A stretch of DNA of 57,394 nt, counting the filler, from Streblomastix strix (Eukaryota), in NCBI GenBank assembly GCA_008636045.1. It is 3 parts of 3 records of this genome, joined end to end, with 100 filler letters (N's around TTAATTAATTAA, not from the genome) between each part and the next. Parts side by side here need not be neighbours in the genome. Positions count along the whole stretch, not along the records: positions 38,336 to 57,394 come from SNRW01000549.1; 2 more parts are not named here. The stretch is one strand, 5' to 3'. Made by a program: the position numbers and the translations under genes. Position 1 is the stretch's first letter. Each line of letters opens with the position of its first letter. A model generated the notes under the pieces. It saw only the letters and a list, made by a program, of their open reading frames with translations, ran no database searches and was not told the origin of the DNA. This document shows, piece after piece, positions 401-57,109 of this stretch.

Positions 401-453
401 ATCATTATTCGAGTTAACTAACATATAATCAAATTATTTTTGCGCAATTAAAC

Positions 454-3612: not shown

Positions 3613-3695
3613 GCTTAATTTATTTTTGTTTAATTGAAATATCTCGTATACTATTCGATAGTAAGCTAGTTAAAAACAATAAGTCCAAAGATAAA

Positions 3696-4043
3696 ATGTA
3701 ACCATTACCTGAACTATAAATATTCAATAAAACCGATGAACAACCATTAACGTTTGATTCGACTGATGAATTCCATTAATATTATGCAGCTAATAAAGAA
3801 TCTATTGATAAGATGCCAACAGTAAAATTAAATAAATCATATAAAATAGAAGGATATATCTTCACAAGATAGAATGAACAAATAGCATTGAAATAAACGA
3901 AACATAAGTCATCTGAGCAAATTGAACTAGCTAGTCTATAAGAATAAATCAAAGAAATATATGACAAATTAACGTATTTAGTTAGCTTCTTTGAATAAAA
4001 ATAACAATCAATTTCCTATTAAAATGATGGGTACGTTCATTGA
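3696..4043 (+). CDS. Hypothetical viral protein (115 aa)
   Basis: Intact code-6 ORF MQPLPELQIF...FDSTDEFHQYYAANKESIDKMPTVKLNKSYKIEGY...YVH* with a C-terminal coiled coil. Confidence 0.7.
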
Positions 4044-4817
4044 TCAGATAACTCTCACAATTATTCCGTCATTATTATACTGTACCAGTAATGCTTCTCG
4101 TTTGCATAATTGCACATATTCATTCGATAATGTTTCTTTATCTAGCGGATTGCTTGATTAATAGAAGAATAAATTGAATTTTTATCTATTGAATCCATCG
4201 AAAAAGTATATTATATCAACATTAGATTTAATGCTAGCATCTAGACCTATTATATCTTGCAAGCATAGGAAATAAATGATTCTTGGCTATTTATTTTTGA
4301 ATATTTTCTTATATAATGGATTGTTTTTATTCTTGAAGATACTCATTGCATCATCGAACAGCATTATTGTATGTGGAAATTTGATAGAAAAGTCCTTTGC
4401 TCCAATATGAGATAATATATCTTTCTTCGATTCTTCTTTCATTTAGTTCTCTAATTTGTATTCAAATACGTCATCGTATACCTTCTTACGTTCAATCAAT
4501 TCATCTAATGCTTCATTCACTTCTGCATATGGAACTATCTTAGTTGGGATAGTGATTAAGTCTTTCATTTTCTTATAAGTTATATCATTATTGCTATCAG
4601 TAACATATATGAATAGTGTGTAACATTTATTAAGCAATTAGCTCAATTTGATTAGCTCTTTGACTACATTATATGAGATACCGCTTCCACGCTATCCTAT
4701 GAGAAAATTGATAGAATTATACGAGAAATTTAGTTCATTATGAATGAATGATTATACTTCATGTTTATTAGTTTTCTATTTGCTAAGTAATTGGTCTACA
4801 TAAGCTGTCAAGGATAT
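4044..4817 (-). pseudogene. A32/FtsK-HerA family DNA packaging ATPase, Walker A Lys lost, start codon not found
   Basis: NFLIGQRGSGISY (Walker A, K>I), IMLFDD (Walker B), KNKQPRIIYFLCLQ (Arg-finger/Gln region). Open frame to TGA at 4044; the likely start position reads ATA. Confidence 0.85.
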
Positions 4818-4869
4818 TTGTTTGTTATTAATTATTTCATTCACTTATGAACCTTTTCTTGTTACCAAA

Positions 4870-6180
4870 ATGAGTACTGAAGAGTTAAATTCTGAAATTA
4901 CAGAAATTTGAGGAAATGCAACGGGTAACGATGAATTCTTTAATGAATTTGATGATACTGAGTAACATATACAAATTTAACATAGGCACAAAAGTCGTAA
5001 AAGTGCTTAAGAATAATTAGCTATATTGAATGAAATAACTGAAGCATTCCGAAGAGTTTAATAAAAATATTAGACCTCAATATTATAAATGACTACAAAT
5101 CCTTTATAAAGTTATATAGCTAGTTAACCTTAAATAATTACCTAAAATCCGATAATTTAGTAACCAATTTAGTTACCAATTTAATTACAAACATAATCAC
5201 TAAGAGAATAATTGATAGAATAAGAATAATAACCAACTTTTATCTAAGACAAAAACATGGCTTAAGCGTAACAATCAATATTTCAAAGTTGGTAAACAGG
5301 ATAGGGATAATCGTTAACAGCAAAATAATAAGCAACAGTAGATATAATGAATGCTGGTGCGGCAAGAAAACGTATAAATCTGGGGTAAGCATTTAACGAT
5401 ACATAACTTGCTGCATTAACAGAAATATTAGATGTAAAGAAATTTAAACATAGAGATATTAAATACAATAAAGAATTGAGAACATTGCCTTCCGCATAAG
5501 CTTATATCGGTAGTAGGAAAAGTATGGCTGGATAAAGAGTTAGAAATGTTGATCCTGATGGTGAAGGATCACTTCCTAGTTTTGCAACTGTTTATACTGA
5601 TAAAGGAAAGCTATATTCTATGGGTGGATATATTCCAAAACTTGAAAGTAAATACGATAGTTTCCAAGAAGATTATATAGGAAGTGTACCAAAAGTCTAA
5701 CGTAAAACTACGAAATTCTTTGATTTTATGAAAGGAAAATAAGTTCCATATGGAAAGGGTAAGGTTCCGACTAATTATTAAAGATTGAATCCCCATCAAC
5801 ACTATATGTCAGCATACGTTCTAACTATGGCTGAAGAATTTAATCAAGCTAACGGAGGAGATTTATGGAAACTTAAAGGAGCATGCATATATGTTGCAGC
5901 AGCAGCTTGGGATTTGATTGTAAGACATCTATTGAAAATTATTGATACATAAATAAATTCGGATGCAGCATGTAAAGAAACTGTTAAACAAGCTGCAAAA
6001 GTGTATAAGAATGAAATTGCAATTAAATATTTCCAAAAGGTTGATGATGATGAAATAGCATTGGCAACAAATATTGAAAACTTATATAATAATATAGCTC
6101 GAGTAGCATATCAGGAAAAGCAAGGAAAATGACTATAATTAGGATATTAAGCTCAAGCATCGTAAATGGAACAAGATTGA
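4870..6180 (+). CDS. Hypothetical viral protein, Gln-rich N-terminal half (possible core protein)
   Basis: One frame from ATG 4870 with a premature TGA at 4909; open from the in-frame ATG at 5089 (or 5257) to TGA at 6180. Confidence 0.65.
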
Positions 6181-6223
6181 TAATGAATGGATTGATCACA
6201 TAATTTATTTTTGATTTATCAAA

Positions 6224-9200
6224 ATGACTAGAACAAAGAAATCAATTGCAGAAGTAAGCAGACTCCTCTAATTATACGATCCAAACACAAACATGAATGT
6301 GAATGATAAATAAAAGAGATCAAATTTAAGTTCAATACTGTCAAAGATTGGATTCTATGGTTAACGTAATAACGTTATTGCTGTGGAATAAGCGATCAAT
6401 GCAGTAGTTTCACGTAATATATATATGAAACAATCCAAAGTAGCAATTGTTACATAAAATCTTGCACGAAAGTGGTTCAATTAACGAGAACAGTAACGAT
6501 TAACACGAGAAGAATAGATATGAGGAGAATAAGAATACAGTAAAATCCGATTAATTCGCACTACCATCGGCGAAAAAAATGCTAGTGCGAATTAAGTTAA
6601 TTCGCACTTTTATAAGTAAAAAGTCAAAGAATTTTTTTTTAAATTTCAAAAAAATAACTATTTTTTCGATTTTTTTTTAAAACTAGAAAAATCTTTGTAT
6701 TTTTGAAAATTTAATGTATGATATTGTATAAACAGTAATATATAATAATAAAATTTAAATATTTACATTAAATATTAAAATTTTTCATAATTAATTTAAG
6801 AAACAAAAATTATTTTCATAAATTTTTATATTTTAAGTGCGAATTATAAAATTTTTTTGCGAATTATCTATAAGAAATTAATAGAGAAACAGTGACATTT
6901 CCTCAAATAATATAATAGTGCGAATTATACATATGGTGCGAATTAATCGGTGTGCGAATTAACAGGATTATACTGTAATTATAAAAATAACGTGAATTAG
7001 ACATAAAAGAATTAAGAGAAGAGTTCGATCCAGAACTATTAGACGAAGAAGGTATATTCGATCCAGAACGATATAGATAATAGCAGCATTAATTAAGAGC
7101 ATAAGAGATAGAGAAACACAGGAGAAAATAAGATGAAGATAGATAGGCAAGATAAGCGTAGTTGTTAGATGAATTTCATAATGTAGAGGATATGAACATC
7201 GATATACTATTCGAAACAGACTAATAAGAAATTAGCGATTACATTAGAATTCATGAAAAATATGTGTATCATCGCTTAAATACAGATAATGATGTGATTA
7301 TGCTATGTGACATATAGAAAGAAGCGCAATTCAATAGAATTAAGAACATTGCATTAAATAGATACAATAAAGAAACAGGTACTCTTTCTTATAAATCACA
7401 TAATTTATCATCAATTAATTAAATGAAACCAACTAAATAATATTATACTAATATTGCTTCATAAGCTGATTTAGATAAACACTTAGACTCTGTATATGAT
7501 AAAGAAAAAGGGAATGTGTTTAAACTAAATGTTGATTTTGGAGTGCTAATAGAACGTGTTGATGGTAATAATGAAGATTAGACAATATAGTACAAATATG
7601 TACTTCCAGTTAATGTAAACTCCGAACGAAGAGCACCATTAGAGATACGATCTAGAGATAACATTAATATGTACAAGTGGTATCTTCGAACAGTTATAGG
7701 AAGCGTGTAGGAGAGAGTTTATACAGATACTCATGAAAAAATAGTATCAATTTTCTCAATAATGCTTTTTGTTTTTCGATATCCATTAGCAGGTGCAGCT
7801 ATTCCTTCATTAAAGTAGCATATTAAATGAAGAGAGATATATTATATTGATTTTAAAGTGAATCTATGTTTCTGTACAGCATATTCATTCGTCACAATTC
7901 CTAATACTAAGGATAAATATTGGAAAGATTGTTCTAGAATCGCTGAATCTAAGCGTATATTTTCAAGAGTAAATGGAGTAGCGTTTCGAGATAATTATTA
8001 AGGATTCGATTTTGTAAGAGAAATTGATAAATTTATTAATAAAGAATAGGTTAATGTGTACATGTACGCCTATAAAAGTGATCCTCTACACTATGAACTT
8101 ACATAAAATTATCTCGTTAATGGTTCAGACATATAGTTCAATATCCTATTCATTAATGATGAAATTAACGCGCACATTATGTATGTATCTGATGTTGAAG
8201 CACTAACTGGATTTCGTTACTGTAATATATGTCATAAATAAACTTTCCGAATAGGAGATACAATTCTATAATAATTAATGAGAAATCATATGAAAAAATG
8301 TCAAAAGAATGGTGTAAAAATAGTGAAGAAAGTTATCTTAGAAAAATTTGCAAAACCGTTTGTTTCTCATATTTTATCTAATAAGACTTATAAGTATCTA
8401 TAAACGAATAATTTAACTCAATTGTTCAAACCTACAAGAAATTACATATCATATGATATTGAAACATTAGAAAAGAAAATTAATGAAAAATTTGGTGATA
8501 TTTCATAAGTTACTGCAACTCTAATTCCATACGCTATTGCATCAACTGTCAAATTGGCTAGTGGTATCCATTCATTTTATTACGATATTCGAACAGACGA
8601 TTTCTTAGATAAGTGGTTAGAGTAAGTATTTGAAGAAGCGAAATATGTTAAGAAAGATAATAAATATACTGATGAAACAATTCCATAATATTATGAAGTA
8701 CCAGTAATTGGGTTCAATTCTGCTAAATTTGATGCGTCAGAGCTATTTAAGAATTTGAAGTCAAAAGATTGGACTATCTCGAAATATTTGTGCTCAAGTA
8801 CAATCGCAAAATAGATAATTGTCAAGCATTAGTCTTCAAGCATTCAATTGAGATTCGTTGATTTTAAGATCTATATTATGCAACATAAGTTAAAGGATGC
8901 TGTTAGAGATTTTGGGAATGGATTGAATAAGAAAGGTCGTTTTCCTCATGAATTCATAAACACTAATAATTACATGAATGAACTGAATAAAAGTGAACCA
9001 TTTCCGATCGAAGCATTTGATAATAAATTACGAAATAAGAAGCTTAGTGAGGTTAGGTACAAGGAGTATCTGGTCGAAGCAGCTAAACACAAATCACGAT
9101 GGGATTACTTGAAGCATTACAATATATTAGATACTAGAGTTCTCATTGAACCTATAGATTACTTGATTGAGTTAATGTTTAAATATAAAGTGGATATGCT

Positions 9201-11169
9201 AGCTAATATATCTATGTCATAATGCGCTAATTCGATCAAATATTCAATAACATATAATGGTTTTGATATTGATGGAGATTATAATTGTGAAAGCACAGAT
9301 AAATTAATCGAAATCACATAGAATTATTGGAGAGCTAAAGTGGATAGTTATATCGAATAAGGTAATAAAAAAGGTAGAGATTCAAGCAATAAAGTTATGA
9401 TTGATGATTATGATTATTTTAAAGAAATATTCAAGAATTAACGATGTCATATGTGCAATGCACGATTCACATGGAAGAATAAGCCCAAATTAGATAGAAT
9501 TGATGATAACAAAGGTCATTCAAAAGGTAATGTGATTAAATGCTGTTTATATTGCAATGTATGCAAAGCTAATCGAGATGATAAATAAATGAAATTAATG
9601 GTATAGTTAAAGAAATATGCGCTATTAAAACGATTACCTATGGCATTAACGAGTAATGAAGGATATCAATTATTGAGTAAAGGTATTATTGGAAGTATAT
9701 CAAATGTGATGCATCGATACAATATTTCAGGAGAAACGAGAATTAATCATTTCGAATTTGATTAAGAAAATAAGTGTGTGTATTCAATTGATTCAGATTA
9801 TGTGATGACCCATGCAGTTTAGTTAGATTTTCATAGCTAATATCCAAGTGTTATGAGTGGTGAGCCAAATATGTTAAATTCTTATACAAATCACATAATA
9901 TTTATACCAGCATAATTGATTGAAAAGATTACTGATCAAGATCGATGTAAAGCACTAATATATGACACTAGCAGGTTCTCTAATGACCCATTAGTAGTCG
10001 ATAAAATGTTATTATTTGTTGCTGAAGTTAGAGGTCACACTGATGAAAGATATATTAATGAAGTGATTAATTGGGGTCCTATTCTAAGAAATATTGATAT
10101 CACAACAAACAAAGAGACAATTGGTGAATTTATGTATAATCATCTAGTCAATCACTAACTCCTGCATGATAAAACAGAATGAAAATTAACAAATTTAGTA
10201 GATACCAATAATGAAATAATGTCATTCAATAATTACTATTTATGGTTACTAATTGATACATATCATCTTGTAATTGACGAGATAGTTAGTGTTACCACAT
10301 TTACGAAACACACTAATTTCAACTCATTCGTGAAGGAATTTATGAATCTTCGATAGTAAGCGAAAGATGCTAAAAATGAAGGAATAGGATAATTCTGTAA
10401 GTTAATATTGAACTCAGTATTTGGAGGCGATGCACTAAATAGTGAGAAATATTCCAATACAAGATAACTCTCTGCAAATAAGACATTCATATAACATATA
10501 ATGGGTGGATTCATTCATTCGACCGAATTAAATGATGACTTATACGCTGTGTAAGTGGATAGGAAAAACTGTCGTTGCAATACATGTTTATAAGTAGCTT
10601 ACTTCGTACTTGATTCTGCGAAATTTTGGCACGATAATTTCATATATAATTTTATGAATATGGCTTATAATATGAATAGGATGCACTTTATTCAAGGAGA
10701 TGCTGATTCATTAACTTGGGCAATTAGTAGTAATCCAAATAGAGGTCCAGAACAGTTATTTGAAGAAGTCATCAAAGACTAGTGGTTCTTTGACAGATAC
10801 AAAGATTGTGTGTTTTCAGAGAATGGATAGAAATATATACTTCATATTGGTGTGGAAAAATATGGTTAGAACTGTATAGCTCTATTACCTAAAAATTACA
10901 TAATTAATAATGAGATTGTTTTGAAGGGAGTGATTTTGAATCAAAATCCATGGATCAATGGACAATCGTTTGAGGACTGCATTAACAAAGGAACTATTGC
11001 AACAGCTATTAATACTACATTAGTGTAGAAGAAAGGTACTATGAGCAGGTTGAAAATGGAGAAAAATGCAGTCATGGGATCTCATACTAAGATGATAGTA
11101 TTATCGAATCAATCATGTCATCAATTTATCAAAAATATCAAAGCAGACAGATATTTTAATAAATAGTGA
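6224..11169 (+). pseudogene. pPolB: Protein-primed family B DNA polymerase (~1500 aa), interrupted by a MITE and three TGA
   Basis: ExoI YDIET (~8452), ExoII GFNSAKFD (~8710), ExoIII HYNILD (~9115), motif A LDFHSQYPSVM (~9823), motif B KLILNSVFG (~10399), motif C QGDADS (~10693). TGA at 6521, 7828 and 10180. The frame is restored when 6538-6977 is removed. Confidence 0.95.
6538..6975. mobile_element. 438-bp non-autonomous Tc1/mariner-pogo type MITE
   Basis: 24-bp TIRs CAGTAAAATCCGATTAATTCGCAC / CAGTATAATCCTGTTAATTCGCAC (21/24), TA duplication at 6536-6537 and 6976-6977, about eight copies of TAATTCGCA(C) in both orientations; removal restores the PolB frame. Confidence 0.93.
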
Positions 11170-11194
11170 TTATATTATTTTTACTTTATCAAAA

Positions 11195-11830
11195 ATGGAC
11201 AAACAAGAGAAACAAGATGAAGTAGTTAATACATTAAAATAATGAATTTCATAAATGCAACAAACAAAAGCTTTATGTAAGTTATCGATGGATTTATAAA
11301 AAATATGTGATAGTATGGACTGATGCGATTAAAATTAGATGCAAGAATTGCAGGTGGATTACCTTGTAGAACTAATAAAATGAAGACAGAATGTTTCGAT
11401 GATTAAGCATTCTATTTAAGACATGCAGGTGAATTAACGAAAATAAATAATGAAAAAAATCTAGTTTGTTTCGATGAGGCACATAGCGATACTGAGTTTG
11501 AAATGCGAATATCGCTTAAAGATAGAATATCGGATGAGATCCAGTGGATGAACTCTGAATGCAATGTCGAAAATAAGCTTCATAATGCTTGTGATGAATA
11601 TAAAGAAATACAAGATAATTATATAAATTAGTTAGAAGAATTAGTTAAAATATTAGAGAGAATAATCTATTTTTACACTAATCAAAATGCATATCTTTTA
11701 ACCATTATCTGCTAATATTACTATAACCATTGAAGCGCTTGAATAGCTACATATTGATTGGCACGCTATCTTTAAGACTATTTAGGATGCCACTATCAAA
11801 TATGCTTGCGAATCGAAGATCTGCCATTGA
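11195..11830 (+). other. Cluster of two or three short, partly degraded viral ORFs
   Basis: AAAATG starts at 11195, 11380 (MKTECFDDQAFYLRHAGEL...) and ~11687 (MHIFQPLSAN...), two of them with the TATTTTT leader; no recognisable domain. Confidence 0.4.
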
Positions 11831-11856
11831 AGTCTATAATTATTTTTGTATATAAA

Positions 11857-13188
11857 ATGAACAGAGATCAATAAGCTAATTAAGATTAAATTTACTAATT
11901 ATTGTTAGCAAGATTTGCTTAAACAGATGAATAAATTAAATATGAATAATATAATATGTAGCAGTAACTCACACGATCAGCGAATACAAATAATAGAATA
12001 ATGAAGTTTGCACAGTTTATATCAAATATGAGAATTACACCTAGTAAAGAAGAACAAACTGTTTTAATTAATCATGCAGATGAAATATAGATAGGTGGAA
12101 AGACTCTTTTTGAATTGTTCGAAATATATTAAACAGAAGCAGAAAAGTATAATGCAACATTGAAACGAGCTGGATCTATCAGAAGCCAAGACTCCAACAG
12201 ATTATATGTAACAGAATAAATCTAGAGAATCAATTAGCCTCAAAAACCTCTTTCATTATTCCCATTCTAATCAAAGATCAAATATTATGAAAAAATTAAT
12301 AAAGTGAAGATAACATAATAAACATAAATCAAAGACATTAAAGCAAAGCCATTAAACAAACTCTAACACCCATATTTTCCCCCAAAACTTGGATCTTGGG
12401 AGATTGACCTTGGATTTGGTGTGAATTCAGTTACTCGAAGAAGATAGCATTATTTATTTGATATCAACATTAATACAAAATATTTAGTTGTCTTTCCATT
12501 AATTGTAGATGAGAAAAATGCTACATATATATTAGCTGCATTAAAGAAGCTCATTAATTATATAGACGCAAATAATATTAGAGGTGATGGTGAAACTAGA
12601 TTCAAAGCTAATATTATTAGATAATTTTGTGAAGATAATAAGATTTCATTATATTTTATAGGTTCGCCATTTACATAGCAGAACATAGTAGTTGATAGTG
12701 TCATTCATACAATCAGAAACGGGTTTGGATAAGATTTATTTGGTTTTGCAACACCTAGCTAGATGTAATAAATGGTAGAGATTTATAATAAAACTCCACA
12801 TCTTGCATTTATGAACAGATTTACTCCAAAATAAGTGTAGTATAATAAAGAATTAGAATATAAATTCATACGATAAAAAAGAGCATAATTGGAATAGGTA
12901 ATAATAAGTCAATAACAATAGAATTTATTAAATTTCAAGAGTGGAAATATATTAATGATTCACGCTGATTTCTCTAGGTTACCTATTAGATTTTAGAAAT
13001 AGAGGCTTTAATTCAATGAGTTGTCAATATTCATTACTTATAAGAACTGTAATGTTGTGTGTAAATTATTGAATTCATATGATAAAATTAATGTTACTGA
13101 GTTACCTATATATTATTGAAAATTCATTAGTGATGATATCAATTCGTTACCAGCTAATTATAAAAGTTAATTTAATATACGTAATTGA
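11857..13188 (+). pseudogene. Retroviral-like (rve) integrase of Polinton type
   Basis: SWEIDL (D at 12406), YLFDININTKYLVVFPL, IRGDGE (D at 12586), VVDSVIHTIRN (D at 12694), YNKTPH. TGA at 13117 is either premature or the true stop; the frame continues to 13188. Confidence 0.9.
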
Positions 13189-14287: not shown

Positions 14288-17081
14288 TCATTCATCTTTT
14301 GTCTCTTATACTACCTATTCAACGAGTCCATTATCTTCAATTGTTTTTTTATATTTCTAATAATTTGCATTAGACGTTTCAGTATCTTCATCATTCATTA
14401 TTTTATCGTAATATGATTATTAATCCTTATTTAACACATATATTCTTGTTCATATTCCATTAATATAAATTCTTTATTCTTCACATTTATGAACCATTGC
14501 ATTTTTATATATCTTTTGTATCCAATTTGAAGGTTTGAATTAATTTACAAGAGCAATTGGAATTCCTTGTTTGAACTGTTCATAATGCTCCATAATTACA
14601 TCGTCTACTGGTGATCGACTAACATTTATCAATTATTTTTTAGATTCAGTCATTGAAACTAATGTTGGATTGAACTATGAAATATCTCTTTCAAGAAAGA
14701 ATGTCATTAAATTTTCATAAAACTCTTATGTGTAACTTTTGCTTAATTCATTAAAATAATCAGACTCTTCCTTATGTTCTTCAGTTACTTAAGGGACAGT
14801 TTTACATGCACATATTAAATGACGTCTATCATCAGTGTCCAATTATACAGGCATATCAGAGTTTGTTACATAGATTATATTCATTACATTCTCAGCAGTT
14901 CTTCTTGGTTAATTCTTTTCATTAATTTTTATAGTTAGATCTGAAATAACTGAATTCATTACTGTTGTAACACCTTTTTTTGAATCATTATAATTCATCA
15001 TTTCATTCAATACTGCAAACATTTTATTTTCGACTACTGAATTGAATCTGCTTGTGAACTAATCTATGTTAGTTATATTTGAACAGCTGTATCGATTTGT
15101 TAGTTCAGCGATTACATCAGTGAATCTATTTTACCTATTCGTTATCTACCTTAAAATACGATTGCAGCTCAAGACTTTTTTCCAGGATTTTATATCATCC
15201 ATGCTATCCAATTAAGAATATATTCATAGACTCTTTCATCTCCTGCAGCAATAGTTTCTTTAATCAAATCAAGGTACATTTAAAAGCATTCATTATCAAT
15301 TCTATCTAATTTCTTATATTTATACCTTTAGAATACTGTGAGAATCTTTGGATCTTCACTAATAAATTTACATCCTTTCTTAGCAAATTTTGAAGCATAT
15401 TTCTTAAAGATATTTTTTGCAGTTAATTGTTTAGAATCCTTTTTATCATCACTCTTTTCATCAGTTTTCTTATTCTTGAAATTTATATTAATTTTCTCTA
15501 ATTATTTATAGACTGTTCCTTCTAACTTGTGAAATAAGACTTGTGTGTCACAGATAGAATCATATCTTTTAATTGCATATATACCTTCAGTTTCACTTTC
15601 ATAATAAACTAATAATCTTGTTAAATCCATAACAATTTATTCTTCATTTTCTTATTCTCCATTAGCTGTTTTCTCTTGCATATCAAATAATATGAATCCA
15701 TCTTATAGATCAATCTTATTATGAATCAATGTCTAGTTAATTATGATTTATTTTTCCTTCCTTTTTGCTTCATAATTCTTTTTCAGTAATGGTCTAATCA
15801 TCTATTAATAGTATTCTTTATTATGGTATCTTAGGATTTTTGAAATGATCCATGGATTTGGTTTGCGTTCACCATTAGATGAAGCTTATCCATGGTTCTT
15901 ATCAGCGTTTGCAGATAGCTTATTGAATTTGCGTATATTTCCTATTCCTTCAGCTCTAATTGATTCATTTCTGAATCCATACAATCCACAGAATATATTT
16001 AGAAGAGATACTTCCATATGGATTGGTTAAGGACAGTTATGTATATCAAGATTCTCCAATCCATCAACACACGCTTATGCAAGTTCATCATTCATTTATT
16101 CAATTGTACCTTCATCATTGATTTATACTCCATAGATTCTATCATGTTACTATTAAGCGTAATCTTTATATGACATCTCAATATTTATATTCCATTAGTC
16201 AAATATCTCCCTCAAGCTCGCTAAATGTGATACATTTTCCCAATCATTAATTGCTTCATATTTGAGTATAACTCGTTAGTTATTTTTAGTTTCTTGAATA
16301 GCTGTGATAGGAGCGACTACACGATTCTATACTATTTGTTTAGTCTCTTTTCCGTTTTCAATTTTATGTTTATTCATTTATGCTAATGCATCAATATCAA
16401 AACTATCTGTCACAGCTACTTTTACATTACGATTGGAAGGTAATAGATAGAAATTTCTATTGCAATAGATATGTAATCCTCCATGGGCAGTCTTAACTAA
16501 ACCTACATTTGGTGGAAGTGTATCAATTAGAATTTATCTTATTTTATCATTCTCTTCTATTGACTTATCCTTATGAATATCTATATCAATTACGCATAGT
16601 TTATCGTCATCCGTTAATAATAAATCAATTAATATATCTGTTATTTATTGTTTTTTATCTTTATATTAACCTAATTTTGTATAGTTTACTGTGTTAATCA
16701 TGGCTTCTTTAACGCGTTCAATTATTGTTTTTGAATCTTATTCTTACATATATAATTCCGCTATCGGTTGAATTATTTCAAGAAATATATTATCATCTCT
16801 TTTTTTTAATCTATACGCTAACTATTAATTTGCAAGTCTTGTTTAAGATCACCTTCAGAATTTATTATATCATGAATGCGTTCGTCATATTTCTCTTCAA
16901 TAATTTGTTAATTACTCGGTTCAACAGTCTGTTCATTAATCATTTGATCAATCATAGCTTTTGCTTTCTCATCTGTTTTCGATTGGCGGGTATATTTACG
17001 TTTTGGTCCTTTCTCAAGTGTCTCACATTTCACGTTTGTTTGTTGGTTTGATTTGTCTTTTGAAAATTCTTCTGTTGCCAT
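14288..17081 (-). pseudogene. Primase-polymerase (AEP/primpol) fused to D5-like SF3 helicase
   Basis: LCVIDIDIHK and GLVKTAHGGLHIYCN (primpol motifs I and II); YEYILNWIAW, FQGRQRIGK (Walker A, 1-bp deletion ~15130), FAVLNE (Walker B), IYVTN, DDRR. TGA at 15169 and 14450; poly-A frameshift ~16800. Confidence 0.9.
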
Positions 17082-17309: not shown

Positions 17310-19075
17310 AGTAGTTATGAGAATATGGAGAGTGCCCCACATAGAAAAATAAAATAAATAATGTTAAATAAAATAATGATTATAAAATAATGAAAATAAA
17401 TAATAATAAATAAATTGCATTAAAATAATGTATAATAAAAATATTCACTTGATTAAAATTATTGTTTGAAAATATTGAATTTAATTAATGAATTGATTAA
17501 TGAAGTTGATTAATGAATTGATTAATGATGTTGATTTTTGAACGTATGGCACTCTCCATATTCTCATAACTACATGGTGAAGTTGATGAAGTTGGTTGAT
17601 GGATTTGGTTGATGGTTTTGAACAAATGAAATTTTATTGAATTTTATTATATTCGGAAACCTAAAATTATTAGTGAATTCGTTAGTGAAAACCATTATAA
17701 ATTGAACATAAAATATATTTGTATGTGGATATATAAATGAAATCGTTGATGAATCTATTAATATTCTTCTTAATTGAAACGAATAAATGGAATAGGTAAT
17801 GAATGACTTAAAAGTGGTCAAGGTGCCCATACCCTGAGTGAATTTTTAACTCATTTAAGAAATTAGCTGCCAATATGCCAAAATGCCATTAAATATATGT
17901 TATTGACACGAATAAATGGAATAGGTTATGAATGACTTTTAGGTGTTCCGAGCCGCAGGCGGAGGTTTAACGACATGTTCCGAGTGTTCCGAGTCAAATG
18001 GGTTCTATAAAAAATGCCAGTCGATCCGCCAAATAGTCGAAACATGAAAAAATAAATAAACGAATTATTCAAATGCTAGCGTCTTCATTGATGTCTTCAT
18101 TAACATCTAATGGTTATGGCTCTTCATCCATTAAATATTCGATATCGTCATCTTAATCCATTTCATCCTTTAACAAATCGAACTAAGCATAATATTCTTG
18201 TATTAATTCATAGCACTATTTACGAATTGATTATTTTTATATTTTTTTATGGTCGCAATATGTCTTTATTCCAATCTCAAAGAATTATTGTTTTATATTT
18301 TCTGGCTTAAATTATAATGCACTTATACATGGAACACCTTATTTAAATTCGTCGATATGTTTTAATATTATATCTTCTATCTATGATTTACTGGCCTTAA
18401 TTATATCACGCTTTGCCTCTGTCATAGGTAGTTGTCGCATATCAAAATCTTTCAAATCTTATTACATAAAGAAAGTAAATAAATTATTGTAAAAATTAAC
18501 ATCTTAACTATTGCATAATTCTTTAAAATATTAATTATCTCCTTTATGAATTGAACTACATTTTAATACAACATAACGCCTATCACTCGCTTCGATTTTT
18601 ACTGGATATGGATTGTTTGAAACGAATATAAAATTTGCAACGTTCTCAGCATCACGACGAGGTTAATTTTTTTCATTTATTCTTATCGTATAATCAGTTT
18701 CAATTGATTTTAACCCCTCATTATTTGCCCGTTTATCCTCTCCAAAATTTGTCATCTCATTGGCTATAATTAAGACCTTTCCTTCGACGATTGAATTGAA
18801 GTTTCCAGTCAATTCTTTTATATTTGTGCAATTTTTACAACTATAGCCCGCCATGAGCTCACATAAAACATCTGTAAATATGTTCTTACCAATACCTTAA
18901 ATACCTTTTAAAACAAGTGATGATTCGGTCTTCTTTCCCGCATTTTGAAGTATATAAGCTATCCAATTAATTACGTAATTATATAATTTTTCATCACCTG
19001 AACAAATAACATTCAATATTAAATCTAAATATTATTTTATTATATTTTTATCATATTTTTCAAGTAGCTCATATT
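17310..19075. mobile_element. End of a second element family (D5-helicase element), truncated by contig end
   Basis: Begins AGTAGTTATG; perfect 26-bp inverted repeat 17311-17336 / 17548-17573; two direct boxes (~17779-17890, ~17905-18035); same layout as 49266 onwards. Confidence 0.75.
18069..19075 (-). pseudogene. D5-like SF3 helicase, C-terminal part (5' truncated), late frameshifts
   Basis: YNYVINWIAYILQNAGKKTESSLVLKGIQGIGKN (Walker A), LIIANE, IRINEK, FIFVSN, ASDRRY. Confidence 0.9.
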
Positions 19076-31716: not shown

Positions 31717-33374
<1,658 letters not shown>

Positions 33375-48390: not shown

Positions 48391-49685
48391 AGATTATTTT
48401 TATTCTTCTAATTATAATGTTTAAGCGATGAATTTTTATTGATTGAAAGAAGACTGATAAAATATGTTCGACAAAATGATTGAAGAAGAGTAAGAAATAT
48501 TGGAAGAATACAAAAAATAGCAAGTTGGAAATTGATAAAGGATAATGATCTGAGCCAGTTGTGTAGAAAACTTTGGTAGATACGAAACCTGGTATAAAGT
48601 TGAATTAAATATTAGAGTTTAAATGAGTCTACGCATGTTTTACCAAAATTAATTCCATTCTCAAATGTTGAGTTTCCTTTAATTGTATTTTCAGTCATTC
48701 TTCTAGGGATAGCTTGAATAACAAAACAGGCAAGCAAAATTAGAACCTATGTGATGATGTTTATAGCACATGCCGAGATACACTGTTTTTAGTTTCGAGA
48801 ACGCTAATTAGCTGTATAATTGAAATAAATGAGTGATATATAAGGAATTCAAATAATATAAAAAATATTATTAAACCTATTGAATGATGCATTATCATAA
48901 TTTTGAAAAGTTCGATAAGGAAAACAAATCGCAAATTTTATTAAAAGAAAAATAATTAGCTATACTTTAAATTAGTTTATTTGAATTTTCAAATTTAACA
49001 TTTTTTAAAAAAAGAATTAGTTTAATAATAAATTATTTGCTCTTTCTAAGTCAATCAATTTTGAAATTGAATTTTTCATTGTTATTTCTATCATCTTCTT
49101 TTAATCTCATCCATAGTATTTGAAGTTTTTTTATCAGATATCTAATACTTAATTACAACTTACTTATCCAATTCGGTTTCATCTTTAAAATTATTTCTCT
49201 TCCTTTTCTGTTGTCAGCTATTAACTTACAAGAAGATTATTGATTTGAAGAGTATTTACCTCCAGAGTAGTTATGTGAAAAAGGAGAGTGCCCCACATTG
49301 AAATATAAAATAAAATAATAATAATATAATAATAAATAATAATAATAAATAATGTAAAATAAATAATAATAATAAATAATGTAAAAGAAAATAAACACTT
49401 TGAACGAGATTATTGAAAGAACAAGATTGATAATGATTAATGAATATGGATGTTGAAGAAGATTAATGATATACGTTATTGATTGATATTCTTGAAATGT
49501 ATGACACTCTCCTTTTTCACATAACAACTTACTCCATTAATTAGGTACGTTAATGGATTTGGTTAATCGAAACCTAAAATATGTTACTGAAAACGTTGAT
49601 GAAAAGCGTTTAATGTTTTAACATAATATATTGAATGATTGATGCGGATTGGGAGTATTGAGTCCTAAAACATCGATGACATCTG

Positions 49686-49806
49686 TGAAATTGGCACGAG
49701 AAAATGGAATCGTTAATGATTGACTTTTGACTGCACCGAGTGCATCGAGTGCATCGAGTCAAAAAACTTTCATCAAAAACTGCTGCCAGCCTGCCATTCT
49801 GCCAGA
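49686..49806 (+). repeat. Left arm of ~120-bp inverted repeat (partner 52438-52557)
   Basis: AAATGGAAT.GTTAATGA.TGACTTTTGACTGCACCGAGTG...CGAGTCAAAAACTTTCATCAAAAAC.GCTGCCAGCCTGCCATTCTGCCAGA matches the reverse complement of 52438-52557 with few mismatches. Confidence 0.95.
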
Positions 49807-49837
49807 TTTGAGACAAATAAATAAAAATAAATAATGT

Positions 49838-52317
49838 TCAAAAGTTGATTTGTTCGCTGATGGCTTCATTAACATCTTCATTAATGTCTTGATCTTCTTC
49901 TTTTTGTCTATCATATAATTTTATTAAATCTTCATTCAATATATGTCCATGTTCGTTTTCCTAATATTGATTTTTATATTTTTTGACATTTATTTTTTAA
50001 AAAAATAGCTGGAATGAATTCTCTTTAACATCATATGGTTTGAATTATAATGCAATAGTGCAAGGCTCCCCTTCTTTAAACGTTTGATAATTTTATAGGA
50101 TTACATCATCAAGTTATGAACATGATGCTCTAAATTTGTCCTTTTTCGCTTCTATGAATGGAACGATTCTTTATTTCCAGCCTTCAAAATTTCTGATCAT
50201 ATAATAAGTAAATAAATTATTGTAAAATTCAATCGTGAAACCGTTAGATAAAGATGTGAAATATTCAACGTCGTCTCTATGAACTGCTTTACATCTACAT
50301 ACAACATAACGCCTATCATTAGTTTCAATCTTTTCAGAGAAATCGTTGATGGTTACCATTATAAAATTCATTACATTTTCAGCTGTTCTACGAGTTTGAT
50401 TTTTTTCATTTATTCTTATTGAGTCATCAGTTATAATCGACTTCAATGCATCCATGTTCGAATATCTCGATTATCTAAAATTTTTAAGTTTATTAGCTAT
50501 TCCAAGGATAATATTTTCGACGACAGAATTAATCTTACCCGTAAATTCATCAATATCTTAAATATTTTTATTTGAATAACCAGCCAATAATTCACATAAA
50601 ACATCCGTGAATATGTTCTTGCCTATATCTTGACTGCCTTACAATATCAGTGCCACCTCTGATTTTACATCTATATTTTATATTACAAATGAAACCCAAT
50701 AAAGTTTATAATTGTATAAATTTTCATCCTCTGCTGCTATTGTTTCATATATTAAAATTAATTAATCATTGTGGAGGTCTTCATCAATAGTAGGCAATTA
50801 TTAATATTTATAACCTTAAAATATATTGAATATTTCAAGGTCTTTTTTAATAAATCTAATTCCTTTCATCATATATAAAGAATTAAATTAATCGCAAACT
50901 TTTTTCAATTATATATTTTTTTTAATTTTCTTTCCTTAGGATAATCTTCTATAATTGTTCATATATTGCAGTTTTATTCATGTAATAAATTTTATATTTT
51001 TCATTGATTGTATCATATTATTTAACTATAAATACTAAGCCATCATCACATGGAGCACATCGTAATATTCTTGCGAAATCTTGAACTATTTATTCAATCT
51101 TTTTATGTACTTTATTTGTTATGTTTTTCTAAATATCTAATAATGAAAAATTATCTTTTAATTCAATTAATTACTAATTTATTTTTATTTACTCATCTTA
51201 TAGTTATTTTGCAAGATAAGGCTTTATAACATCGTTGTAATACTATGGATTATGATATTTAACAATCTTTTATAGAACCCATGGATTAGCTTTCGAATAG
51301 AATCTAGACTTTTTGAGCTCCCAATTTTGAATCTCATTTTCGGTTAAATTATTTTATGTTTAAACTTTATTATAAAAATCATCAACGTATTATTTAATTT
51401 CCTCCTCTTGCAATCCTTCAACAAATACAAGTCCATTTAATCCAGTAAATAAACATAATAACGTTATTTCTCGTTCGACTTTCTAATCATCATTATGTAT
51501 ATATAAATGTTAGATTCCATCAACTAATAAATCAACTAATTCCTTATATATTTTTCTTAATTTTCCGTCATTATTTATAATCGATTTCTCTTCTTCAAAT
51601 TATGCTCTTAAATCTATGCCGTAAATAACTAAGACATCATTTAATGCCGCTTGGTTCTTCTTTTCAAACGTATTATTTAAGTCCTCATATTTTAAAGTTT
51701 TCCTGTAATTATTTTCTTTATTTCTATATGTTGATTTCGGAAGAGCAACAAGTCTTTAATTTTCATCGATTCGTGCAAATATATCAACATCAAAGTTTTC
51801 AGTTTTAATGATTTTTGATTTATGAATTATTTTTTAATGAATATCCATCTCTATCGGAATATATATAATCCTCCATGAGCTATCTTAACGAGTCCAACAT
51901 TAAAAGATAAATTTTCAATAATTTTATTTCTAATTTCTGTTATTTTTTCATCTGATAAATCTTTTTTGATATCAAAATCCATTACGCATAATTAATCATC
52001 ACATTTGTCTAAATCAACTGCTGAACCTGTTTTTGAACTTTTTTTCAATATGTATGTTTCTTTTAATTATATAATGGAGTGATTCTGTCTTTGATATTTT
52101 GGCAAATAGTTAAATTATTATATTTCGAATTATTTTCTGACATATTTATTTGAAGAGCTAAAAATATTCCATTAATTTATCTCTTTTTCTTTTGTTCATC
52201 AGTCATATTACCTGTTATTTCTGTTGGATATAATTCATTGATTATTTAGCTGGTTTGACTGATTGATGGATTCTAATTGCCGACACATCCGACAGATTCA
52301 AATTCTTTTCTTGCCAT
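49838..52317 (-). pseudogene. Primpol (AEP) fused to D5-like SF3 helicase, frameshifted
   Basis: LCVMDFDIKK, NVGLVKIAHGGL, LILQGSQDIGKN (Walker A), IRINEKNQTRRTAENVMNFIMVT, NDRRY; frameshifts near 51860 and 50000. Confidence 0.9.
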
Positions 52318-52437
52318 TTATTTCCTGTTAAAAAAGTTGAATTTAAAAAAAACTCATTTATTTTTAAATATTATTAAATTTTTATTTATTATTTTTTTTA
52401 TTTGGAATAAATTTATTTTTATTAATGTTTTTTCACT

Positions 52438-52557
52438 TCTGGCAGAATGGCAGGCTGGCAGCTGTTTTTGATGAAAGTTTTTGACTCGATGCCCTCGGTA
52501 CACTCGGTGCAGTCAAAAGTCATTCATTAACTATTCCATTTATGCGTGCCAAAATCA
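52438..52557 (-). repeat. Right arm of ~120-bp inverted repeat
   Basis: Reverse complement of 49686-49806. Confidence 0.95.
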
Positions 52558-52927
52558 TACACTTTTATATTGCAAAATTGGTATGCATCAACTGATAAAG
52601 ATTTCGATTTAAACATCATTTTTGAATTCTTCATATCAACATTATACATAAACATCATTCTCAAGTCAATCAGAAAACATAAATGTTTTGACTTATTTTT
52701 TAGCTTAAATTTTTTACATTCACTATATATAAAAAATAAATAATTAATAAATAAAAATATAAATTCATTTCAATGAAAATCTAAAATCATTTGATAATCA
52801 ACAATATATACAATTCATATGCGCTGATTCCGAATATGAACTTTTTAGCTCAATCTGGAACTGTTGCTGTATGAGAATTATAGGTTTTATTTAACATGAA
52901 TAATTAAATATTTTTATTATGATTAAA

Positions 52928-53488
52928 ATGAAAAGTCTAACTATTCCAGAAGTAGAACCATAATTTGAAAAGAAAATTGACCCATTTTAGCAACAATTTT
53001 AGCAACTATTTCTGCAACATGATATCGGATGTGAAACGCCAACCTTGTCAGCTAGGCGTTAAAGTTCAATATTTGAAGAAACTTTAACTCCAGACCCTTC
53101 AGTGTATCGTTGGCTGTTGGATACCATTAGTGAAGACGAACATATGGTAAAAGAATCAGCGCATTTCGAATTATCTGAAAATTTATTGATTCAGGTTGTT
53201 GCCTACACTTTTGACGTCCCTGAAAGTTAAATTTAATTGAGTATAGAGGACAAAGGTAATTGTGGAAGATTTTGCAATGACTCAACTTAAACATTAAATG
53301 AGTTATTAATTGGGAACGTAAATATATTAAAGTTAAACGTCGAAAATGTAATTTTAATATGGGATAACTATAAAATTTGCTTATAAAAAATAAGAAAAAT
53401 TACATGTACTTTAGATTTAGGAGAAATATCAAGTAAAATAATTAGTGCAGTATTTAAAGGATTAATGACAGTGTTAAGTAAAATTTGA
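52928..53488 (+). CDS. Hypothetical protein (186 aa), probably element-encoded
   Basis: Intact intronless code-6 ORF MKSLTIPEVEP...KIISAVFKGLMTVLSKI*, with a TATTTTT..AAAATG leader like the viral genes. Confidence 0.65.
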
Positions 53489-53520
53489 TGCTATTAATAA
53501 ATTATTTTTATTTTTATAAA

Positions 53521-53722
53521 CTGGACGGAGATTTGCATATGCTTGATGTTGTTTTTAAATCATGATTAAGTGCTTTATGGTTCAAGTAGATATAGCACCA
53601 TTGGTTTAATTAATGAGGTTAGAAACATTGAAAATTTAATACATATAATTAATGAAGCGCCTGAACCCTATAATCGTGAGGAAATTGATGAAATATTAGA
53701 TAAAAAATTAAATATTTCTGAT
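53521..53722 (+). pseudogene. 5' fragment of possible virion fibre-like protein, cut by insertion
   Basis: ...PEPYNREEIDEILDKKLNISD resembles Y(T/N)KxEID fibre-type repeats; the sequence character changes at ~53721. Confidence 0.35.
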
Positions 53723-55070
53723 CTCTCATGCACTAAGATCCAGAGAGCGAGGTGGAAACGCTCGCCTTTAGAGACGAATGAGAGATAAACACTCTTTATT
53801 ATGTGATGTGTCCAGTAATAATTGTGAAAATATAACAAAATAACTGATAATTAAAATTGTTAACGGGAACCGCCTTATCAAACCCTTTGAAGCTTTTTTA
53901 TTACGTTCTTGTATCCAGAATGTCAGTAAGGACCCCCTCCGCGATCAATTCGGACATTTAAAATTCTTGAGATAAATCTTTGTACAATTCCTGGATGACA
54001 TTTACTCGTAGAGATAAGACAGATTTTAGGAGTATACGAACTGTTATATTCCATCGTATATTACGCCCTTCCTACCAGCCTGTTATCTTTTTTTACGATG
54101 CATTGTTCAAGAGATTGATGTTTAGCAACGCGTGAACTCGTTCCCATGGCAGAACTTTATTGAGGGGACCGATATCAAGCACATTCAAGCTTTGCCGTTT
54201 TTGAAGGTCGTCAGGGGGCCAATTGCTCTAAATAGTTTTTGACCCTTCCTTTTAGGGAATCGCACCTGGAAAATATGATGATTCAAACCCTGAGGCAGCC
54301 TGGACCTCAATAAATTAAACAGGCAGGAGAGCCATCCACCTATCTCCATAATCTGTGGAATCTAATCTCATATTATCAAGAAATGTAAACAATAATTAAT
54401 GGTTAAAAATTAGATAGATTACTAATACCACTAGGTGCATGCCTCAACTGTTATATAAGGTGTATGCAGTAAAGGAACAGTAGAATCAATAAGATCCGCA
54501 GTATCAACAATCTTTGGACTAATAACAGGGAAAGTCCAAATATAGGCAAATTTGGATGCATAATTATTTAGAGATCATCATCTTTGTATGGGAGCAAATC
54601 AATACTTAAATGACAAAATGCTCTAAGCAAAAGCGGCAGCACTTTTATTGATTAATAATTTCGTGAGAGTCACAGAAATGCAATAAATTGAATGTGGATC
54701 TATATAAATAAATTAGCAACTCAATCAGATATCATTCCAATGTTAATTAAAGACTTCTGAGAAAGAAGAAAGAATCTATCTTGATGAAAATCCAGCAGTC
54801 GAAGAAAGATTATCAACAATTAAACTGATATAAGAATTGATTGGTAGAGTCTAAAAGAGAACATTTAATAAGGCGGCTCACTTATTTCTCAAGCCAAATT
54901 CATTAGGTGCACTATCAGTATCACAAATCAGTGATTTAATTCGCACGTTATTATAAGAAGCCGGACTTGACACAAAGGCCTATGGCGTCTATTCATTGAA
55001 AGCGGCAGGAATTTCTGAATAATTTGAATAAGGGAAAAGTCTGAAATAAATGCCTGGTGGTATGAGAGCA
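53721..55070 (+). mobile_element. Remnant of tyrosine-recombinase (DIRS/Crypton-like) element
   Basis: Nested hairpin at 53721-53786, GC-richer non-coding segment, then a YR fragment; no RT seen. Confidence 0.55.
54459..55050 (+). pseudogene. Tyrosine recombinase fragment lacking the catalytic Tyr region
   Basis: SIRSAVSTIF, KYRQIW, LQAKAAALLLINNFVRVTEM (Arg I), QLKT, HLFL, ISDLIRTLLQEAGLDTKAYGVYSLKAAGIS (box II variant). Confidence 0.8.
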
Positions 55071-57109
55071 ATATTTAGTAGATTTGATAGTATATGTTGA
55101 ATGGAATGAGGATATAAAGATAGATAGTGAATAAATAGGGTATGGAAAGGAAATAATGATTATATTAATGTATAAATTTTCATTTTTTGTAATATTTTCA
55201 TGTTATTTGTATTCTATCTCTTCATATATTTTTTTATTGAATTGACCTAACCATGTCATTTGGTGTAAAATCCGAGTTGAAATTTACATCAAAAAAAACA
55301 CCCCCTCTAATTTATTGCTAAAAAATATAAAAAATATGAATATAAAAAAAAATATTGAATCATTATTCAAAAAACACCCCCTCTAATTTGATGAAAAAAT
55401 TGATTTAGCATCATACTTTTCTCTTTCATTTACGTTATGTCATCGTATTATTATTATTATTTTGTTTGATATGATAGCTGAGAATGTAATGATAGTGGTT
55501 ATATTGAAAGTATTCTATTAAAGTCTGGACTTTTGGGGTTCAATATGTCATCTGATTATTTTTTTAGATAGTTTATAGGTTATATTTTATATTTTTAAAT
55601 TGGATTGGTTAGTTCTAAAGGATTTGATTTGATACTTATTGCTTTGAATTATCAGAATTAATAATTTAGTCAGTTTTTAATTGTTACTAACTTGTTTGTT
55701 ATGGTTAAACTAAAGATTATGATTGAGTTATTTAGTTATTTTCAATAAATTTATCATTTTCAATGTTGTTTAATAATTTTATCGTACTTTTCAGCTTAAT
55801 TTTCTAATATTTAAGGATAAATTTTTATTAATTTGATTATTTATTTGATAAATTTAATTGCTGTTATAATAAATAATGATTATTACTATTGATTAACGCA
55901 GACTATTATTATTATTTTTAGGAAGAATGAAGATTAAGAAATTAATCTTATATTGGATAAAATTATTATTGTTTATTTAAGTTTTAATTATGCGAGTGAT
56001 TTGTAGAATTAAAATAATATTACTCAAAAAACTGGAGATATGTTACTATTTATTGTTAGAGATTATTGTGCACAATCAAAAATATTCGAAGGAGATAAAG
56101 AAGATGATGAAATGAAATCTTAATTACGTGTATCTTATCCAAAATAATATCATTATTCGATTAGTTAAAATATTTTTAATCTTCATATTAAATATTATTT
56201 GATTTATTTTGTATAGATTAAAAATGTAATTATCTATTTAGATTCTAATCTTTTGGTACAATTATTGAATTAGAAATAAAACCTTCCATTTAATTAGAAC
56301 TTTCAAGTAAATCTTTTCTTTAGTTATATCATTGTCTTCTTATTCTTATATATCTTTTTCCATAAGTAATTATTATTCTTAGAAATTTGATTATTTAATA
56401 TCAAATTCTATTTCTTACTGCTATTGGATTATTTAATTCGGTTGTGTGAAAGATTTAGAATGAATTATAATGTTATCATTTATTTAATTATCATTAATAC
56501 TACTATTGGATAATTTTATTGACTTTATGAGTTTGAATTTAATTATTTTTTTAATAACTAATTATTTTTAGGTAATTAATTTGTTATTTATGATGAATTT
56601 TATTATTATGTTTAATTTTTATTTGCTAGTTAGATTTCTGACAAAAGTGATGATTAATTTAATTAATATTAATCTATTTGAATTAATGATGTTTTTGATT
56701 CTTATTAATTCATTGATAAACCAGTATGTTATTATTTTTATATGGATTATTATTCTAATGCTTCTTTTAATTACTCTTGAAGAGATTTCGGTTAGGAAGC
56801 TGTATATTATTAAAATTTATAGATACTAATATAAATTTCTATTATTTGGTTTATAGTTCTCTCCTTCCAGTTACAAGAATGTGCTTATTTAACAAACTGC
56901 TATGGAAATTCTATAGGCGGTAGACTAACTGGCTCATCTTAAATAGTATTCTGTTATATGTTGTTATTATTTTCTTCTTTATCAGTGTTTTATTCTTCAG
57001 TTGATTCATTGTCATCTGATGGTTCTGAAAGCTCTTCATTGTCTAATGTAAAATCTTTATCATCATTATCGTATTCTTCTTAATCATTGTGAATTATCTT
57101 TTGGATGAT

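What the first reader, a model, noticed from the sequence alone, without database searches (positions are those of the whole stretch)
49266..53722. Second, apparently distinct replicon family: primpol-D5 helicase gene enclosed by iteron-rich inverted repeats, with an AGTAGT terminus
Seen: a single primpol-SF3 helicase gene is bracketed by ~120-bp inverted repeats, preceded by a 260-bp fold-back and an AGTAGTTATG start. A diverged copy with the same layout lies on another contig (17310-19075), abutting the Polinton. No PolB, integrase or capsid gene is visible in either copy. Established: Polinton termini often begin AG/AGT repeats, used in protein-primed slide-back initiation. Inference: this is either a satellite/transpoviron-like replicon that borrows Polinton integrase and capsid, or the left end of a second virus family whose replication cassette is modular and possibly invertible.
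Basis: partly seen in the sequence, partly recalled or inferred. Interest (0 to 1): 0.9.

Follow-up and report, generated by a model that had tools for sequence, protein, structure and literature searches.

The report
Polinton left end, repeat-bracketed replicase
This is the broken left end of an integrated Polinton-type DNA virus of a termite-gut protist, whose close relatives carry a capsid gene, so it is likely not a separate satellite; its primase-helicase gene sits between its own inverted repeats, which may mark a swappable replication module.

Summary
The anatomy is real. AGTAGT at 49266 is a sharp left end: three copies have unrelated flanks. The 266-bp fold-back has 21/21 paired arms, and 3 of 3 differences between copies are mirrored. 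A 143-bp, 89% inverted repeat encloses a decayed primpol–NrS-1-type SF3 helicase gene.

The element does not stop at the cassette. The next gene (52928–53722) starts a multicopy repeat ('fibre-like') protein and is cut by a tyrosine-recombinase remnant. In other Streblomastix strix gene models it runs on, through two more genes, into a double-jelly-roll capsid protein. The second copy ends with its contig. The missing PolB, integrase and capsid are therefore explained by truncation.

Best reading: the left end of a second, capsid-coding Polinton/Maverick subfamily, sister to the contig-1 Polinton and similar to Trichomonas TvMav3. PolB, integrase, right end and TSD were not shown for this subfamily. 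Inversion was not seen. Repeat-bracketed replicases in such viruses are already described in a 2026 preprint. The co-evolving terminal fold-back remains unexplained.

The parts
49266..49271 (+). Left terminus 5'-(AGT)2 of the element
   Evidence: Three copies (49266, 17310, L001:7395): upstream 30 nt match 8, 12 and 11 of 30, downstream 27, 30 and 27 of 30. A flank contig of run X1, identical to the window, stops at 49294.
49266..49531 (.). Terminal fold-back: arms 49270-49290 / 49505-49525 around an AT-rich loop
   Evidence: z -3.6; 21/21 paired; 3 of 3 differences to the 17310 copy are mirrored in both arms; no Rfam match
49532..49690 (.). Spacer between fold-back and left repeat, length-variable among copies
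   Evidence: Homologous to the 17310 copy; joints skipping 100-180 nt in read contigs
49691..49832 (+). Left internal inverted repeat with short CGAG/CTGCCA repeats
   Evidence: 143 bp, 89% to the right arm; 72% to the counterpart in the 17310 copy
49838..52317 (-). Primpol-SF3 (NrS-1-type) helicase pseudogene, frameshifted, Walker A/B altered
   Evidence: DUF5906; closest P0001, 77-86% in the best blocks; the P0001 model matches NrS-1 and phage primase-polymerases
52411..52552 (-). Right internal inverted repeat, about 95 bp upstream of the helicase start
   Evidence: tandem duplicates in read contigs (joints 52554/52555->52416)
52928..53722 (+). 5' part of a multicopy repeat ('fibre-like') gene, broken, cut at 53722
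   Evidence: 55 representatives up to 1350 aa; a read contig continues in frame past 53712 with the repeat unit; P0326 and P0289 link this part to the capsid gene
53723..55100 (+). Inserted tyrosine-recombinase (DIRS-like, label inferred) remnant that truncates the element
   Evidence: Pfam phage integrase E 0.005, PHROG integrase E 0.003; single-copy-like depth and a diverged copy starting at 53724
17310..17574 (.). Second copy: terminus and fold-back, inserted about 230 bp upstream of the contig-1 Polinton's helicase
   Evidence: z -6.9; 73.5% to the first copy; first 30 nt identical to L001
17773..18060 (+). Second copy: left internal repeat with a partial tandem duplicate
18069..19075 (-). 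Second copy: 3' half of primpol-helicase, cut by the contig end
   Evidence: DUF5906 E 2e-20
35..2175 (+). Contig-1 Polinton: small ORF 'g35' (35-400) and major capsid gene (454-2175)
   Evidence: Homolog P0274 folds as a double jelly roll: Foldseek E 4.5e-11; VIA Z 13.9, rmsd 4.3, 325 aligned to PBCV-1 capsid
2766..13119 (.). Contig-1 Polinton core: KilA-N, A32-like ATPase (-), pPolB, putative integrase
   Evidence: KilA-N and PolB_2; ATPase similar to the L003 A32-like ATPase, E 5e-10; integrase by recalled motif only, no library hit
14291..17081 (-). Contig-1 Polinton's own primpol-helicase, same family, no clear flanking inverted repeat
   Evidence: flank comparison not significant under strict scoring, z 2.5 (4 of 300 shuffles) under lax scoring

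Best explanation
49266-53722 is the decayed left end of an integrated Polinton/Maverick of Streblomastix strix, from a second subfamily whose close relatives carry a double-jelly-roll capsid gene and which likely also carries pPolB and integrase further right. The order pieced together from relatives is terminus, fold-back, repeat, primpol-helicase (-), repeat, fibre-like gene, G3, g35, capsid. Shown: the sharp AGTAGT end, the bracketed gene, the gene chain to the capsid, and truncation by a tyrosine-recombinase remnant. Inferred: (i) an integrase inserted the element, and pPolB primes at (AGT)2 by slide-back (established for the family, recalled). (ii) The primpol-helicase is a second replicase that would bind the short repeats in its two flanking arms, unwind and prime, like NrS-1 or SaPI Rep. 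(iii) The two arms are kept alike by occasional recombination or copying, which would also let the gene be swapped between Polintons. (iv) The terminal fold-back arms are homogenised by template switching during terminal replication.
For: Boundary. The AGT motif is the commonest vertebrate Maverick end (PMC8097293 passage). The repeat does not end at the cassette: summed depth in X1 is 137,000-186,000 over the fibre part, 28,000-114,000 over the helicase gene and 13-31 on the flanks (depth is no copy number). Gene chain: 16 of 120 listed G3 hits run on into g35 or capsid. P0326 starts with a fibre part 69% identical to 53645-53722 (81-86% to window-type fibre models) and ends in capsid. P0289 joins the 53561-53725 part to capsid. 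Eight G3/capsid pairs share contig length and near-consecutive locus tags. The closest helicase P0001 lies three tags from a type-2 G3 on an 11,596-bp contig, and type-2 G3 goes with capsids 56-62% identical to the contig-1 capsid. Capsid fold. The same helicase family sits beside pPolB-like, A32-like and DUF4108 genes in L003. The helicase falls in a starred clade with the contig-1 Polinton helicase. TvMav3 has primase in 91.8%, PolB in 74.3% and integrase in 82.5% of 1705 copies.
Against: No full-length copy was seen, because no genome is held. PolB, integrase, ATPase, right TIR and TSD were not shown for this subfamily. The gene chain rests on automatic gene models that join decayed genes through predicted introns, and on locus-tag adjacency; neither proves one intact element. 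The fold-back region is about ten times shallower than the cassette in X1 (about 7,000). This may reflect diverged termini, but could mean that many cassettes lack this end. The repeat motif also appears in gene models at other positions (P0249, P0109).
Confidence: 0.82

Rival explanations
1. The repeat-helicase-repeat unit (about 2.86 kb) is itself a mobile or invertible replicase cassette that rides in Polintons and is exchanged among them.
For: The arms are closer to each other (90%) than to the second copy's arm (72-77%), which is concerted evolution. The helicases of the two AGTAGT copies are not sisters in the best tree. The repeat motif occurs between G3 and g35 in P0249 and after a fibre part in P0109. 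Related helicases sit at other positions without repeats (contig 1, L003). The 2026 preprint proposes such mobility.
Against: Both window copies and several read-contig joints put the cassette beside the terminus in one orientation (62 joints not shown). No TSD is evident at the outer arm ends (sequence). The AU test does not reject monophyly of the two helicases (p 0.06). P0113 has helicase and fibre on one strand, but the join lies inside both genes on a 1,299-bp contig, which fits an amplification chimera or deletion. Short metagenome contigs are no evidence: P0024 (2.8-kb contig) is nearly identical to the helicase inside the Polinton L003.
Confidence: 0.2
2. A capsid-coding Polinton-like virus subfamily that has replaced pPolB by the primpol-helicase as sole replicase.
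For: PolB was not linked to type-2 genes in any call. Replication-module swaps between pPolB and AEP-SF3 are common (preprint passages). 26% of TvMav3 copies lack an annotated PolB.
Against: The (AGT)2 end fits protein-primed replication. The sister subfamily and L003 carry both replicases.
Confidence: 0.15
3. A capsid-less satellite or transpoviron-like replicon that borrows Polinton integrase and capsid.
For: Neither window copy shows PolB, integrase or capsid.
Against: Both copies are cut, by the contig end and by an inserted element. The adjacent gene leads into a capsid gene in same-subtype models. There is no ACTACT end in either contig segment.
Confidence: 0.05

Closest known systems
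Trichomonas vaginalis Maverick class 3 (TvMav3; PMC12289875 Suppl. Tables 3-5)
   Same: Metamonad Maverick with a primase-domain gene, KilA, A32-like ATPase, capsid-like genes and a phage-tail-repeat gene; copies often nested or fused. A T. vaginalis protein cluster of 198 members (P0034) belongs to the same helicase family, and L003 has the TvMav3 marker DUF4108 beside it.
   Different: Here the helicase is the first gene, has its own 143-bp inverted repeats, and follows an AGTAGT end with a 266-bp fold-back. Which TvMav gene (primase or 'Poxvirus D5') P0034 is was not established.
Metamonada MCP group of endogenous viruses (Bellas et al. 2023, PMC10120064)
   Same: Reports code-6 endogenous viruses in S. 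strix detected by capsid genes.
   Different: The passages read give no termini, subfamilies or helicase cassette for S. strix.
Repeat-bracketed replicases in Polisuviricotina (bioRxiv 10.64898/2026.10.13.758929, section 13)
   Same: Repeats separate from the TIRs bracket a replicase (including an AEP gene alone), tandem integration occurs, and mobility is proposed.
   Different: The passage search found no metamonad example. Here the bracket recurs next to the terminus in two diverged copies, and its arms evolve in concert.
NrS-1 phage primase-polymerase-helicase (PDB 6K9C) and SaPI5/pRN-type Rep primase-helicases
   Same: Helicase fold and domain order.
   Different: Eukaryotic endogenous virus; about 20% identity; this copy is a pseudogene.
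Transpovirons
   Same: Terminal repeats and a helicase-bearing gene (recalled).
   Different: This family has a capsid block and is integrated in the host genome.

Membership tests
Polinton/Maverick | 5'-(AGT)2 or (AG)3 terminus at a sharp boundary | tested here: met
   motif per PMC8097293
Polinton/Maverick | Matching right TIR ending (ACT)2 | tested here: inconclusive
   None in the window apart from the inner fold-back arms; both copies are truncated
Polinton/Maverick | 6-bp target-site duplication | tested here: inconclusive
   No ACTACT-plus-TSD found; right ends absent
Polinton/Maverick | Double-jelly-roll major capsid protein | tested here: met
   Through relatives: same-subtype fibre/G3 models run into capsid; fold
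Polinton/Maverick | Protein-primed PolB | tested here: inconclusive
   Present in the sister element and as a PolB-like ORF read by motif in L003 (no Pfam hit); not linked to this subfamily
Polinton/Maverick | Retroviral-type integrase | tested here: inconclusive
   Candidate 11857-13119 in the sister element has no library hit; not linked to this subfamily
Polinton/Maverick | A32-like packaging ATPase | tested here: inconclusive
   Seen in the sister element and L003 only
Transpoviron / capsid-less satellite | No morphogenesis genes | tested here: not met
Transpoviron / capsid-less satellite | Short (under about 8 kb) unit with both ends, or free linear DNA | not testable with these tools
Autonomous TIR element (cassette alone) | Copies at unrelated sites with TSD at the repeat ends | tested here: inconclusive
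   No TSD evident; hints only from gene models P0249 and P0109
Invertible cassette | Both orientations with breakpoints in the repeats | tested here: inconclusive
   Only one orientation among the listed joints, 62 not shown; P0113 breakpoints lie inside genes
Primpol-SF3 helicase (NrS-1 type) | N-terminal primase-polymerase fused to an SF3 helicase | tested here: met
   DUF5906, NrS-1 best in PDB, full-length matches to phage primase-polymerases, cluster members named Prim-pol; the window copy is broken

The most novel reading that the evidence does not exclude
The 2.86-kb repeat-primpol-helicase-repeat unit is a self-copying, invertible replicase cassette that hops between metamonad Polintons. 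The 266-bp terminal fold-back, whose arms change together, is a self-priming hairpin origin that gives these viruses a second, parvovirus-like route of replication beside protein priming.
Probability: 0.12. Interest if true: 0.8.

Novelty: new variant of a known kind. Interest (0 to 1): 0.36.

Why it matters
Metamonad Polintons are still unplaced and thinly described. This gives a defined terminus, a gene order and two subfamilies for S. strix. It also supplies a high-copy test case for a fresh, untested idea: that repeat-bracketed replicases of small eukaryotic DNA viruses move on their own. Long reads from one genome would allow position, orientation and helicase-versus-capsid trees to be scored across many copies. 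As a separate satellite family it does not stand.

Tried and rejected

Viral contigs gave nothing: pattern scan 0 matches; protein scans with 61, 9 and 32 pattern hits, none confirmed. L002 is a chance match in GC-rich DNA. Earlier findings: three look-ups returned nothing.

The fold-back as an independent MITE was rejected, because homology continues past it in both copies and there is no TSD. The fold-back as a right end of the contig-1 Polinton was rejected, because L001 shows host DNA on its left. Short 2.4-3.3-kb metagenome contigs were rejected as proof of a stand-alone unit (selection by gene length; P0024 versus L003). P0113 was rejected as proof of inversion.

Inverted repeats around the contig-1 helicase were not significant under strict scoring and weak under lax scoring. 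No similarity was found between the terminus and 13620-14060, 1-450 or 52553-52930. Rfam gave 0 matches. The fibre-like and G3 proteins have no informative family: none in Pfam, PHROG 5004 of unknown function. Read evidence across the contig-1 Polinton is lacking, so depth and joints there are unknown.

Literature searches found no description of S. strix Polinton termini or of a terminal fold-back. The library lacks most subscription papers, figures were not visible, and bioRxiv supplements, which may list such cases, were closed.
Full report
Setting. The window is three contigs joined by N spacers (1-19075, 19176-38235, 38336-57394). It reads in code 6: 5 ORFs of 100 aa or more in the standard code, against long recognisable ones in code 6. 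Database gene models matching the window are named Streblomastix strix, on contigs of 19,075 and 19,059 bp (P0272, 100% identical; P0073).

Terminus. AGTAGTTATG occurs only at 17310 and 49266. A pattern scan of metagenome contigs gave 2 loci. L002 is chance. L001 carries a third copy at 7395 behind unrelated AT-rich DNA. Over 30 nt upstream the three pairs match 8, 12 and 11 of 30; downstream they match 27, 30 and 27 of 30. In run X1, which may be the window's own sample and so is not independent, a flank contig identical to the window stops at 49294. (AGT)2 is the commonest vertebrate Maverick end (PMC8097293, passages).

Fold-back. Both copies fold better than all 200 shuffles (z -3.6 and -6.9). 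The 21-bp arms pair perfectly in each copy, and the 3 positions at which the copies differ are changed in both arms. This rests on two copies and three sites. The last bases pair imperfectly in both copies. Homology continues beyond the fold-back, so it is part of the end, not an inserted MITE. Rfam gave no match.

Internal repeats and gene. The arms at 49691-49832 and 52411-52552 (143 bp, 89%) enclose one gene, 52317 to 49838. It is broken by frameshifts and has altered Walker A and B. The arms are 90% alike, but only 72% and 77% alike to the arm of the 17310 copy, which points to concerted evolution. They contain short CGAG and CTGCCA repeats, and read contigs show tandem duplicates of them. 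The nearest homolog P0001 folds like the NrS-1 primase-helicase (PDB E 1.5e-15) and phage primase-polymerases. The 59 longer homologs come from S. strix, Monocercomonoides, T. vaginalis (a 198-member cluster) and metagenomes.

The element goes on. Summed contig depth in X1 is 13-19 on the left flank, about 7,000 over the fold-back, 28,000-186,000 from 49670 to 53880, and 13-31 beyond (the tool warns that this is no copy number). The high zone runs 1.2 kb past the right arm. That stretch starts a multicopy protein (55 representatives, up to 1350 aa; 10 of 10 looked up are S. strix) with long tandem repeats. 'Fibre-like' is my inferred label; no library names it. A read contig continues in frame past 53712 with the repeat unit, whereas the window switches at about 53723 to a low-depth tyrosine-recombinase remnant.

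Link to a capsid gene. Long fibre models end in a further gene, G3 (139 hits, 120 listed, all listed ones S. strix). Of the 120, 16 run on into the contig-1 ORF g35 or the gene at 454-2175. Eight G3 hits share contig length and near-consecutive locus tags with one of 60 homologs of that gene (read by eye, same contig inferred). P0326, P0289 and P0323 join fibre and that gene in single models. An alignment of 42 homologs folds as a double jelly roll: mean pLDDT 68; Foldseek E 4.5e-11 to an iridovirus capsid; VIA Z 13.9 (rmsd 4.3, 325 aligned) to PBCV-1 and 13.2 (rmsd 4.4, 377 aligned) to mavirus. G3 splits 57 to 63 into two types. Type 2 goes with window-type fibres, with P0001 (three tags away on an 11,596-bp contig) and with capsids 56-62% identical to the contig-1 capsid. 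Of the 14 S. strix helicases named, 5 lie on contigs over 10 kb, and 2 of these have a listed G3 three tags away. The finding is therefore the left end of a second capsid-coding subfamily. The chain rests on automatic models of decayed genes, not on one intact element, and it does not reach PolB or integrase.

The helicase is ordinary Polinton cargo. Contig 1 has its own homolog next to PolB. L003, an apparently eukaryotic contig in a bacterial genome bin, has one beside a PolB-like ORF, an A32-like ATPase and DUF4108, with no upstream repeat. In a 66-row tree the finding's helicase falls in a starred 18-row clade with the contig-1 Polinton helicase, while the 17310 copy's helicase lies outside. 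An AU test on 24 of these rows does not reject uniting the two (p 0.06), so a swap is suggested, not shown.

Mobility and inversion. For: concerted arms, the tree, and the repeat motif in gene models at other positions (P0249, P0109, weakly P0041). Against: the same position and orientation in both copies and in the listed joints (62 not shown), no TSD, and P0113's same-strand join lying inside both genes on a 1,299-bp contig.

Known work. Bellas 2023 (PMC10120064, passages) reports code-6 viral capsid genes in S. strix. T. vaginalis TvMav3 has primase in 91.8%, PolB in 74.3%, integrase in 82.5% and a phage-tail-repeat gene in 55.1% of 1705 copies (PMC12289875: passages, section 6, supplement search and file 1 part 1). 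PMC7845603 (passages) lists 2,716 primase against 1,491 PolB genes. Preprint 10.64898/2026.06.19.733378 (passages) finds replication-module swaps common and metamonad elements unplaced. Preprint 10.64898/2026.10.13.758929 (passages and section 13; figures not seen) describes repeats bracketing replicases and proposes, as speculation, their mobility. Kapitonov and Jurka's slide-back model and the features of transpovirons are recalled, not read. Searches found nothing on S. strix termini or a terminal fold-back.

Verdict. Observation mostly right; satellite reading not supported. This is a new variant of a known kind, interest 0.36, with the co-evolving fold-back and the bracketed replicase as the open points.

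Noticed in passing
window 8062-10182 (+), residues about 426-514: The contig-1 PolB carries an endonuclease VII/HNH-like insert (PHROG 1035, E 1e-10), relevant to the homing-endonuclease idea for replicase turnover.
   Followed up: no
L003 1-9384: An apparently eukaryotic, TvMav3-like Polinton contig (PolB-like, A32-like ATPase, DUF4108, primpol-helicase) sits inside a bacterial genome bin, likely a contaminant.
   Followed up: partly
window 53723-55100: Low-copy tyrosine-recombinase (DIRS-like) remnant inserted in the fibre-like gene; no terminal repeats found between its two ends.
   Followed up: partly
window 17309/17310: The second element is inserted about 230 bp upstream of the contig-1 Polinton's helicase, a nested or tandem arrangement; the host Polinton's own right end is not visible.
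   Followed up: partly
window 14060-14300 and 17085-17309: Weak inverted similarity around the contig-1 helicase (4 of 300 shuffles as good), possibly a very decayed bracket.
   Followed up: partly
proteins P0249, P0109, P0041: Gene models contain translated copies of the internal repeat at other positions (between G3 and g35; after a fibre part).
   Followed up: partly
window about 55292 and 55371: A short direct duplicate (about 22 nt, C-rich core) just right of the recombinase remnant, seen.
   Followed up: no
window 22242-22481 and 28425-28532: In-frame 30-nt and 18-nt tandem repeats inside host genes on contig 2.
   Followed up: no
window 19076-19175 and 38236-38335: Artificial N spacers with a stop-codon linker join the three contigs; ORFs crossing them are artefacts.
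   Followed up: yes
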